This document shows, piece by piece, positions 1,141 to 1,154 of a DNA stretch of 4,439 bases. The stretch lies in the IMG/VR virus record IMGVR_UViG_3300029157_000003; one strand, 5' to 3'. The stretch comes from a virus. Taxonomy: Duplodnaviria; Heunggongvirae; Uroviricota; Caudoviricetes. Below the pieces are notes generated by a model that saw only the letters and a program-made list of their open reading frames with translations, did no database searches and was not told where the DNA came from. A program made the translations under genes and the position numbers. Numbering within the stretch: the stretch's first letter is position 1; each line of letters opens with the position of its first letter.

Positions 1141-1154
1141 ACACCGCACGGTGT
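1141..1154. promoter_or_regulatory. Perfect 14-bp palindrome ACACCG-CA-CGGTGT in the leader of the early operon
   Basis: Seen directly in the sequence, 13 bp downstream of the predicted -10 and before the RBS of the 51-aa ORF. Could be a protein-binding site or a leader RNA hairpin. Confidence 0.4.

What the first reader, a model, noticed from the sequence alone, without database searches (positions are those of the whole stretch)
1141..1154. Perfect 14-bp palindrome in the leader of the early operon
ACACCGCACGGTGT is a perfect palindrome with 6-bp arms, lying between the predicted -10 (1123-1128) and the RBS of the first small ORF. It is unrelated to the TTGAG operator motif, so it may be the site of a second regulator, host or phage, or a leader RNA hairpin affecting translation or antitermination.
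Basis: seen in the sequence. Interest (0 to 1): 0.4.

Follow-up and report, generated by a model that had tools for sequence, protein, structure and literature searches.

The report
Conserved 5' hairpin of prophage early transcript
The small inverted repeat just after the early-left (dicB-type) promoter of this Qin-like E. coli prophage is most likely a short RNA stem-loop at the start of the early transcript, because related phages keep the pairing while changing the sequence; what it does has not been tested.

Summary
The repeat exists at 1141-1154, but it is ACACCG-CA-CGGTGT: 6-bp arms around a non-palindromic 2-nt centre, not a perfect 14-mer. Alone it is not significant (about 1 expected per window at this spacing, about 11 at spacers 0-10).

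The window is a Qin/mEp460-type lambdoid immunity region of E. coli. It holds a dicC-like cro, a DicA-like repressor, a PL-equivalent promoter, then ydfA-ydfB-ydfC and DicF. The repeat lies at +7 to +20 of the predicted transcript.

Across about 180 related loci the leader starts at a conserved CATCAA. Behind it, at least nine different sequences each fold into one short hairpin at the same place. Changes within a class fall in the loop or give G.U wobbles. Hairpin class is independent of operator type and of the first gene.

This favours an RNA stem-loop over a protein operator. Its role is inferred only: protection of the 5' end, or a signal acting on early elongation. A host TetR-family regulator, DicD (YjdC), is reported to occupy the dic locus, so a DNA site cannot be excluded for this class.

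A second hairpin (1176-1191) with an invariant GGCGUUAA loop and a covarying closing pair is the more striking conserved element. Interest is moderate to low.

The parts
1032..1062 (+). Stem-loop ending in UUUAUCUU after the repressor gene. It is the likely intrinsic terminator that insulates the early-left promoter from repressor-gene transcription.
   Evidence: -11.3 kcal/mol, z = -3.72, 0 of 200 shuffles fold as well. Other leader classes carry a clear GC-stem plus T-run at the same place.
1077..1126 (.). Two immunity operators, TTGAGTTTTCTCAT (1077-1090) and ATGAGAAAACTAAA (1113-1126), bracketing the promoter. They are unrelated to the palindrome.
   Evidence: pair I1, 93% complementary. 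The same motif occurs at 540-555.
1100..1128 (+). Sigma-70-type early-left promoter, the equivalent of dicBp and of lambda PL: -35 TTGACG, 17-nt spacer, -10 TAAATT.
   Evidence: Every leader class has a -35/17/-10 promoter ending about 4 to 7 nt (mostly 6-7) before the A of ATCAA (sequences).
1135..1135 (+). Predicted transcription start, the A of the conserved CATCAA. It is also the mosaic junction where homology between different immunity types begins.
   Evidence: K-12-type matches begin at query position 135, which is window 1134.. Lambda PL has the same CACATCAG context; that its +1 is this A is from my memory of the lambda map. Predicted, not measured.
1141..1154 (+). hp1, the finding itself: ACACC-GCAC-GGUGU, a 5-bp stem with a tetraloop (6 bp on DNA) at +7 to +20 of the transcript.
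   Evidence: fold. (eight sequence classes tested; a hairpin is the minimum-free-energy structure in each; Fisher p about 2e-4). A ninth class was read by eye. (pair counts).
1167..1173 (+). Invariant GUUCCGC in front of hp2.
   Evidence: invariant in 13 distinct sequences from E. coli, Cronobacter and metagenomic phages.
1176..1191 (+). hp2: CCCC-GGCGUUAA-GGGG, with a nearly invariant 8-nt loop (position 2 is A in the K-12 type).
   Evidence: outer pair CG 7, GC 2, AU 1, UA 1, unpaired 2; inner pair CG 10, UG 3; 96% of cells paired against 86% in shuffles; one copy per locus in 178 loci.: -7.8 kcal/mol.
1196..1360 (+). Shine-Dalgarno GAGG (1196-1199) and ydfA (DUF1391, ATG 1205 to stop 1360), the first gene of the operon.
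   Evidence: (annotated ydfA, DUF1391).

Best explanation
The inverted repeat is the DNA image of a short stem-loop (hp1) close to the 5' end of the early-left, dicB-type (PL-equivalent) transcript of a Qin/mEp460-like, N-less lambdoid prophage. Selection acts on the pairing, not on the sequence.

Shown: the anatomy, and the conservation of pairing across sequence classes.

Inferred: the +1 position (A1135), that the RNA folds this way in the cell, and the function.

The function I commit to is a structural obstacle at the 5' end of a long polycistronic early mRNA (ydfABC, DicF and the genes downstream). It would slow 5'-end-dependent decay, meaning RppH conversion, RNase E entry and RNase E scanning. 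That would set how much message survives after derepression.

I put about 0.7 on 'RNA stem-loop under selection' and about 0.3 on this particular mechanism.
For: (1) Context. Searches give a DicA-like repressor, the operators and the promoter, then ydfA/B/C and DicF (Rfam 76.7 bits). The window is 100% identical to an E. coli chromosome.

(2) The leader is its own module. In about 180 loci homology between different immunity types begins exactly at CATCAA. This sequence class (class A) sits behind at least 4 unrelated operator types, and classes B, C and D behind at least 2 each. The same leader precedes different first genes.

(3) Nine sequence classes each carry a hairpin starting at +3 to +11:
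- ACACC/GGUGU
- ACAGC/GCUGU
- CAGC/GCUG
- GCAC/GUGC
- ACAACGA/UCGUUGU
- AUCAC/GUGAU (Cronobacter phiES15)
- AGCAAUC/GAUUGCU
- AACCAC/GUGGUU
- one weak case
. Loops range from 3 to 10 nt.

(4) Two classes share the 5' sequence AGCAAUCAC but pair it with different 3' arms.

(5) All variation within a class is in the loop or is wobble-compatible: GCAC to GUAC in L143/L144, and loop changes in L111 and L146.

(6) Shuffle tests on the eight classes tested give p = 0.002 to 0.98 for the longest stem, combined p about 2e-4.

(7) On a model-fitted alignment 93% of cells pair. Four of 5 hp1 pairs show changes on both sides. The covariation score is 0.32 against 0.10 in shuffles and at most 0.04 in the slid controls.
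Against: The palindrome alone is at chance level.

The per-class shuffle p-values are modest. One class is only a 4-bp stem (p = 0.25) and one is weak (p = 0.98). The classes share ancestry, so the Fisher p is optimistic.

The covariation alignment is fitted to the structure and is partly out of register.

The long-leader classes (L104, L272/L281; the last lambda-like) keep CATCAA and hp2 but lack this hairpin.

The whole leader is no more stable than its shuffles: z = +0.66 and -0.08.

With +1 at A1135 the stem is preceded by 6 unpaired nt, and by up to 10 in phiES15. From memory, classical ompA-type 5'-terminal protection needs no more than about 2-4 (Emory, Bouvet and Belasco 1992).

The TSS is predicted, not measured. 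No paper I could search mentions the element.
Confidence: 0.5

Rival explanations
1. A DNA operator for a second regulator that acts as a roadblock at +7 to +20. The obvious candidate is the host TetR-family protein DicD (YjdC).
For: PMC9283627 reports 2- to 12-fold ChIP-qPCR enrichment of YjdC at dicA/B/C. It also reports 3- to 12-fold lower dicA and dicB mRNA when YjdC is overproduced. No nucleotide-level site is given.

A dyad of 6 + 2 + 6 bp has the usual size of a TetR-family operator (general knowledge).

The 14 nt are invariant in 51 class-A loci.
Against: Other E. coli prophage leaders carry different dyads with different arm lengths and spacings at the same place, which one host protein could not read.

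The G.U-compatible change in L143/L144 breaks DNA symmetry but keeps RNA pairing.

No similar dyad lies near dicD, or in the dicA-dicC region of a K-12-type locus, beyond chance.

Invariance within class A is not clearly greater than in the rest of the leader.
Confidence: 0.15
2. hp1 is one half of a two-hairpin leader signal that acts on RNA polymerase: AUCAA, hp1, GUUCCGC, then hp2 with its GGCGUUAA loop. It could be a pause hairpin or a put- or nut-like processive antitermination signal. Such a signal would let the N-less phage read through the DicF terminator to the genes beyond.
For: The whole leader is a conserved module in front of different first genes.

hp2 has a nearly invariant loop and a covarying closing pair.

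No N-like protein is encoded, yet an intrinsic-terminator-type sRNA, DicF, lies inside the operon.

HK022 putL also begins at +2/+3 of PL. Its first stem has a similar size, AGACG-AACGGCG-CGUCU, with an ACGG-containing loop.
Against: A covariance model built from HK022 putL and putR finds nothing at any dicB-type leader with E up to 10.

The stems are 4-7 bp against the long, bulged put stems. The leader fold has z about 0.

No boxA is present, and no second copy in 178 loci.

The long-leader classes keep hp2 without hp1.
Confidence: 0.12
3. No function. A chance dyad in a leader that is conserved for other reasons, such as hp2, the translation initiation region or recent common descent.
For: Such dyads are expected by chance.

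Most loci are very close relatives. Shuffles of about 30 nt give a 4- or 5-bp stem in about 6-25% of trials.

The long-leader classes do without it.
Against: A hairpin is the minimum-free-energy structure of the pre-hp2 leader in 8 of the 8 short-leader classes tested. It is always the first structure after the start, and a ninth class read by eye shows the same.

There are 7-bp stems in two classes (p = 0.002 and 0.006).

Two classes pair a shared 5' arm with different 3' arms.
Confidence: 0.2

Closest known systems
5'-terminal stabilising stem-loops of E. coli and phage mRNAs (ompA 5' UTR type), and structured obstacles to RNase E scanning
   Same: A short stem-loop close to the 5' end of a long mRNA. 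The pairing is conserved rather than the sequence, and no dedicated protein is needed.
   Different: 2 to 10 unpaired nt precede the stem (6 in this window if +1 is A1135), more than the classical rule allows. No half-life data exist. The comparison rests on my own knowledge of that literature, not on a test made here.
HK022 putL antiterminator RNA, stem I
   Same: The first structure of the PL transcript of an N-less lambdoid phage, starting at +3. It has a 5-bp stem and a loop containing ACGG.
   Different: put needs about 73 nt with two long bulged stems and a triple helix (PMC9378689). The leader here has only a 5-bp and a 4-bp hairpin. The put covariance model does not match, and no PR-side copy was found.
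Lambda-type nutL (boxA + boxB read by N)
   Same: A small hairpin in the PL leader, upstream of the first gene.
   Different: No boxA, no arginine-rich N-like first gene, no GNRA-like pentaloop. The loop sequence differs between classes although the downstream genes are the same.
Immunity operators (OL-type) of the same prophage, and TetR-family operators
   Same: Dyad symmetry close to the promoter.
   Different: The sequence is unrelated to TTGAGTTTTCTCA. It does not change with immunity type. The spacing and arms vary between classes, and a wobble-type change is tolerated.

Membership tests
Immunity-repressor operator (DicA/CI type) | Matches the operator consensus of its own immunity region and changes with immunity type | tested here: not met
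   The operators are TTGAGTTTTCTCA. The same ACACCGCACGGTGT follows at least 4 unrelated operator types.
HK022 put RNA | Lies immediately downstream of the PL start | tested here: met
   hp1 is at +7 to +20 of the predicted transcript. putL spans +2 to +74.
HK022 put RNA | About 70 nt folding into two long stem-loops; sequence and structure similar to putL/putR | tested here: not met
   Model R1 built from putL and putR scores 92 and 89 bits on HK022 but gives no hit with E up to 10 at any leader. The leader fold has z = +0.66 and -0.08. Caveat: the model rests on two sequences.
HK022 put RNA | Terminator read-through that depends on the beta' zinc-binding domain | not testable with these tools
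   Needs transcription assays.
Lambda nut site | boxA (CGCTCTTA-like) upstream of the hairpin | tested here: not met
   The only match in the window, with 1 mismatch, is at 198-206, outside the transcript and below chance expectation.
Lambda nut site | An N-like protein with an arginine-rich motif encoded in the operon | tested here: not met
   The first genes are YdfA, YdfB and YdfC (small, no arginine-rich N-terminal motif). The alternative first genes in PPompW and mEp460 have no such motif either. The judgement is by reading the sequences.
Intrinsic terminator / attenuator | GC-rich stem followed by a U-tract | tested here: not met
   The terminator scan reports nothing here. The tail is UUCUCC, and the other classes have AGGUUUUAG, GACAGG or CAGGCU.
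5'-terminal stabilising stem-loop | A stem-loop is the first structure of the mRNA | tested here: met
   The minimum-free-energy structure of the pre-hp2 leader is a single hairpin in all 8 classes tested. This is a prediction only.
5'-terminal stabilising stem-loop | No more than about 2-4 unpaired nt at the 5' terminus | tested here: inconclusive
   6 nt in this class, 2-10 in the others, if +1 is the A of ATCAA. The TSS is predicted, not mapped.
5'-terminal stabilising stem-loop | Lengthens mRNA half-life | not testable with these tools
   Needs a rifampicin chase of arm mutants and compensatory mutants.
DicD (YjdC, TetR-family) operator | Matches the regulator's binding motif | not testable with these tools
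   No motif or footprint appears in the papers I could read.
DicD (YjdC, TetR-family) operator | Related dyads at other DicD-occupied places (the dicA-dicC region, its own locus) | tested here: not met
   With up to 3 mismatches there are only chance-level, non-palindromic matches.
Any Rfam family | Covariance-model match | tested here: not met
   No hit at 1135-1205 with E up to 1. Rfam has no put model.

The most novel reading that the evidence does not exclude
The whole 60-nt leader (AUCAA, the variable hp1, the invariant GUUCCGC, and hp2 with the nearly invariant GGCGUUAA loop) is an undescribed cis-acting RNA module of N-less lambdoid phages of Enterobacteriaceae. It would act on elongating RNA polymerase or recruit a host factor, working as a functional analogue of nut or put that is not homologous to either. 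Early-left transcription could then pass the DicF terminator and reach the genes beyond: dicB, an exonuclease, xis and int in the relative mEp460.
Probability: 0.1. Interest if true: 0.7.

Novelty: new member of a known kind. Interest (0 to 1): 0.33.

Why it matters
The dicBF operon encodes two cell-division inhibitors, and its control is under active study (DicA, DicC, Rem, DicD). None of the papers I could read considers the 70-nt leader.

A conserved 5' stem-loop, and the more strongly conserved hp2 with its invariant loop, give two small, cheap mutagenesis targets. They could add a post-initiation layer to that control.

They also bear on how lambdoid phages that lack N express a long early-left operon containing an internal terminator.

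If the hairpin only tunes mRNA stability, it is an ordinary feature.

Tried and rejected
- Rfam on the window: only DicF, plus a sub-threshold STnc100-like match.
- Rfam on the HK022 PL/PR region, to learn whether put is in the library: it is not.
- MAFFT plus RNAalifold on 13 leaders. The hairpins were not put in register, so only hp2 and a pairing to the ydfA start region came out. This was not informative for hp1.
One scan was wasted.
- About half of the metagenome scan hits were unrelated GC-rich contigs.
- Full-text search for the palindrome and the hp2 loop found only unrelated primers.
- The King et al. 2011 paper on put-like RNAs was not found in the library.
- Reg-Seq (PMC7567609) lists dicB but gives no footprint for this promoter.
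- Intrinsic terminator: rejected, no U-tract.
- nut site: rejected, no boxA and no N.
- Immunity operator: rejected.
- N-terminal extension of YdfA: rejected. The frame is open from 1049 with an in-frame GUG at 1151-1153, but there is no Shine-Dalgarno sequence, and class B, which also precedes ydfA, has no in-frame start codon (checked by reading only).
- IHF site: CATCAA resembles the WATCAR core, but the TTR part is missing.
- Similarities to NrdR, NtrC and MqsA sites recalled from memory do not fit in spacing.

Full report
WHAT THE WINDOW IS

The window is 100% identical over 1000-1520 to an E. coli chromosome (strain 14EC017), where ydfA, ydfB and ydfC are annotated. Its layout is as follows.

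- A cro/DicC-like gene lies on the minus strand at 300-554.
- A DicA-like repressor lies at 605-1012.
- A strong stem-loop at 1032-1062 looks like the repressor-gene terminator (z = -3.7).
- Two TTGAGTTTTCTCA-type operators sit at 1077-1090 and 1113-1126.
- They bracket a sigma-70-like promoter, -35 at 1100-1105 and -10 at 1123-1128.
- Downstream come ydfA (1205-1360), ydfB (1362-1490) and ydfC (1520-1738).
- The DicF sRNA is at 2081-2132 (76.7 bits against a gathering score of 48).
- After a run of N at 2274-2373, a long ORF runs off the end of the window.

This is the immunity and early-left region of a Qin/mEp460-type lambdoid prophage. The promoter is the equivalent of dicBp in K-12 and of PL in lambda. 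Viable phages share the arrangement and encode no N gene. In mEp460 the order is repressor, ydfA-like gene, dicB, exonuclease, xis and int.

THE OBSERVATION

ACACCGCACGGTGT is at 1141-1154 as reported. It is an interrupted inverted repeat, with 6-bp arms around the non-symmetric centre CA, not a perfect 14-bp palindrome.

Inverted repeats of this size are expected by chance. Shuffles give about 1 per window at this spacing and about 11 for spacers 0-10; the window has 5 and 19. So the repeat means nothing by itself, and everything rests on comparison with relatives.

POSITION IN THE TRANSCRIPT

In every related locus a -35/17-nt/-10 promoter ends about 4 to 7 nt (mostly 6-7) before the A of a conserved CATCAA. 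Lambda PL has the same context, CACATCAGCAGG. Its +1 is that A, according to my memory of the lambda map.

Homology between prophages of different immunity begins exactly there. K-12-type matches start at window 1134. I therefore take A1135 as +1, which is predicted and not measured. The repeat is then at +7 to +20, and the ydfA ATG at +71.

COMPARATIVE EVIDENCE

I collected about 180 loci carrying this leader. They came from genome, viral and metagenome collections and from phage records.

(1) The window's sequence class (class A, ACACC-GCAC-GGUGU) is invariant in 51 loci. It follows at least four unrelated operator types:
- TTGAGTTTTCTCA
- the K-12 type GTTAGCTATAGC
- TTAGATCAATCTAAC
- CTTAGGTTTTTCTA
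. It is therefore not an immunity-specific operator.

(2) Other leaders have a different sequence at the same place, and each folds into one hairpin:

| Source | Hairpin (5' arm - loop - 3' arm) |
|---|---|
| E. albertii (L003) | ACAGC-ACGGC-GCUGU |
| L278 | CAGC-N8-GCUG |
| Class B | GCAC-AACG-GUGC |
| Class C | ACAACGA-ACCGCA-UCGUUGU |
| Cronobacter phage phiES15 and relatives | AUCAC-GGCUCA-GUGAU |
| L276 | AGCAAUC-N10-GAUUGCU |
| L289 | AACCAC-ACA-GUGGUU |
| L271/L277 | a weak nested structure |

. The stems are 4-7 bp, the loops 3-10 nt, and the stems start at +3 to +11.

(3) phiES15 and L276 share the 5' sequence AGCAAUCAC. Each pairs a different part of it with a different 3' arm. That is hard to explain except by selection for pairing.

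(4) Variation within a class is confined to loops (L111, L146) or is wobble-compatible. GCAC becomes GUAC in L143/L144, giving U.G.

(5) Hairpin class is independent of the first gene. Classes A, B and C each occur in front of ydfA and in front of a different gene.

Statistics:
- In shuffle tests of the segment between +1 and GUUCCGC, the longest Watson-Crick stem has p = 0.002 to 0.98 in the eight classes tested.
- The combined p is about 2e-4. This is optimistic, because the classes are not independent.
- A covariance model of the class-A leader with hp1 and hp2 finds all classes.
- On its model-fitted alignment 93% of cells pair.
- Four of 5 hp1 pairs change on both sides.
- The covariation score is 0.32, against 0.10 in shuffles and at most 0.04 in the slid controls.
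- That alignment leans towards the structure and is partly out of register.

COUNTER-EVIDENCE

Classes with a longer leader keep CATCAA and hp2 but have no such hairpin. These are L104, where a toxin-antitoxin pair sits between the repressor gene and the promoter, and L272/L281, the last with a lambda-like AUCAAGGCAGGACGCC start. The whole leader is no more stable than its shuffles.

WHAT IT IS NOT

- Not a terminator: there is no U-tract.
- Not a nut site. There is no boxA. There is no arginine-rich N-like protein among YdfA/B/C or the alternative first genes.
- Not a recognisable put RNA. HK022 putL also starts at +2/+3 with a 5-bp stem, AGACG-AACGGCG-CGUCU. But a model built from putL and putR finds only HK022 itself, and put needs two long stems (PMC9378689).
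- Rfam has nothing at this position, and it holds no put family.

THE MAIN RIVAL

A Nature Communications paper (PMC9283627) reports that the host TetR-family protein YjdC, renamed DicD, is enriched at the dic genes by ChIP-qPCR. It also reports that overproduced YjdC lowers dicA and dicB mRNA. No site is defined.

A 6 + 2 + 6 dyad at +7 to +20 would suit such a protein. Against this:
- Other E. coli prophages carry different dyads and spacings at the same place.
- A wobble-type change is tolerated there.
- No related dyad lies near dicD or in the dicA-dicC region.

I keep this reading at about 0.15 for this sequence class.

MECHANISM

What is shown is a conserved potential to form a small hairpin as the first structure of the early-left transcript. 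What it does is inference.

I favour a 5'-proximal obstacle to 5'-end-dependent decay of the long polycistronic mRNA. This is a known role of such hairpins in E. coli (my own knowledge of the literature). The 6 unpaired nucleotides in front of the stem fit the newer 'obstacle to RNase E scanning' idea better than classical 5'-terminal protection.

The alternative is an effect on early elongation together with hp2.

THE SECOND HAIRPIN

hp2 (1176-1191, CCCC-GGCGUUAA-GGGG), with the invariant GUUCCGC in front of it (1167-1173), is the more strongly conserved part of the leader.

- Across E. coli, Cronobacter and metagenomic phages the loop is nearly invariant.
- The closing pair is C-G, G-C, A-U or U-A, and the inner pair is C-G or U-G.
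- It occurs once per locus.
- It sits in front of unrelated first genes, each with its own Shine-Dalgarno sequence.

I found no description of it in the literature I could search.

VERDICT

The feature is a new example of a familiar kind, a 5'-proximal mRNA stem-loop, with an untested function. Interest is moderate to low. The whole leader, above all hp2, deserves a mutational test.

Noticed in passing
window 1167-1191: A second leader element: invariant GUUCCGC followed by the hairpin CCCC-GGCGUUAA-GGGG. The 8-nt loop is nearly invariant and the closing pair covaries (CG, GC, AU, UA) across E. coli, Cronobacter and metagenomic phages. It occurs once per locus, upstream of unrelated first genes. 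Read by eye only, an alternative pairing CGCY/RGCG (1171-1174 with 1180-1183) would exclude hp2.
   Followed up: partly
window 1129-1140, and all related loci: The mosaic junction between immunity modules and the early-left operon lies exactly at the predicted start, CATCAA. Lambda PL shares the CACATCAG context, and some long-leader relatives (L281) continue with lambda-like AUCAAGGCAGGACGCC.
   Followed up: partly
window 2081-2132: DicF sRNA gene, a full-length Rfam match (76.7 bits). Its terminator hairpin lies inside the operon, upstream of a long ORF.
   Followed up: partly
window 2158-2273 and 2274-2373: A sub-threshold STnc100-like match (28.8 bits against a gathering score of 47) runs straight into a 100-base run of N. 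What the masked stretch holds is unknown.
   Followed up: no
window 1032-1062: A strong stem-loop (z = -3.7) ending in UUUAUCUU, just after the repressor gene. It is the likely terminator that keeps repressor-gene transcription out of the toxic operon. The simple terminator scan missed it.
   Followed up: partly
window 1155-1159 with 1188-1192: This window and three other loci have C at 1159 (UCUCC), where most relatives have A. In the predicted fold UCUCC pairs with GGGGA, the 3' arm of hp2. It is specific to this variant and of unknown meaning.
   Followed up: no
window 1049-1360: The ydfA reading frame is open for 156 nt upstream of its ATG, and an in-frame GUG lies inside the hairpin at 1151-1153. 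There is no Shine-Dalgarno sequence, and class B, which also precedes ydfA, has no in-frame start codon (checked by reading only), so this is probably not coding.
   Followed up: partly
L104 10030-10511: In one group of relatives a ParD/RelE-like toxin-antitoxin pair, judged by reading the ORF translations only, sits between the repressor gene and the early-left promoter. Their leader is about 170 nt, C-rich at the start, lacks hp1 and carries a second hp2-like segment (ACCCGGCAGUGGUCAGGGGU).
   Followed up: no
L151 (HK022) 8295-8311, minus strand; L151 9454-9524: Stem I of HK022 putL and putR (loop GAACGGC) resembles several hp1 versions that contain CACGG or CAACGG. putR shares CCCGGCGU with hp2. 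The put covariance model gives no match, so this may be coincidence.
   Followed up: partly
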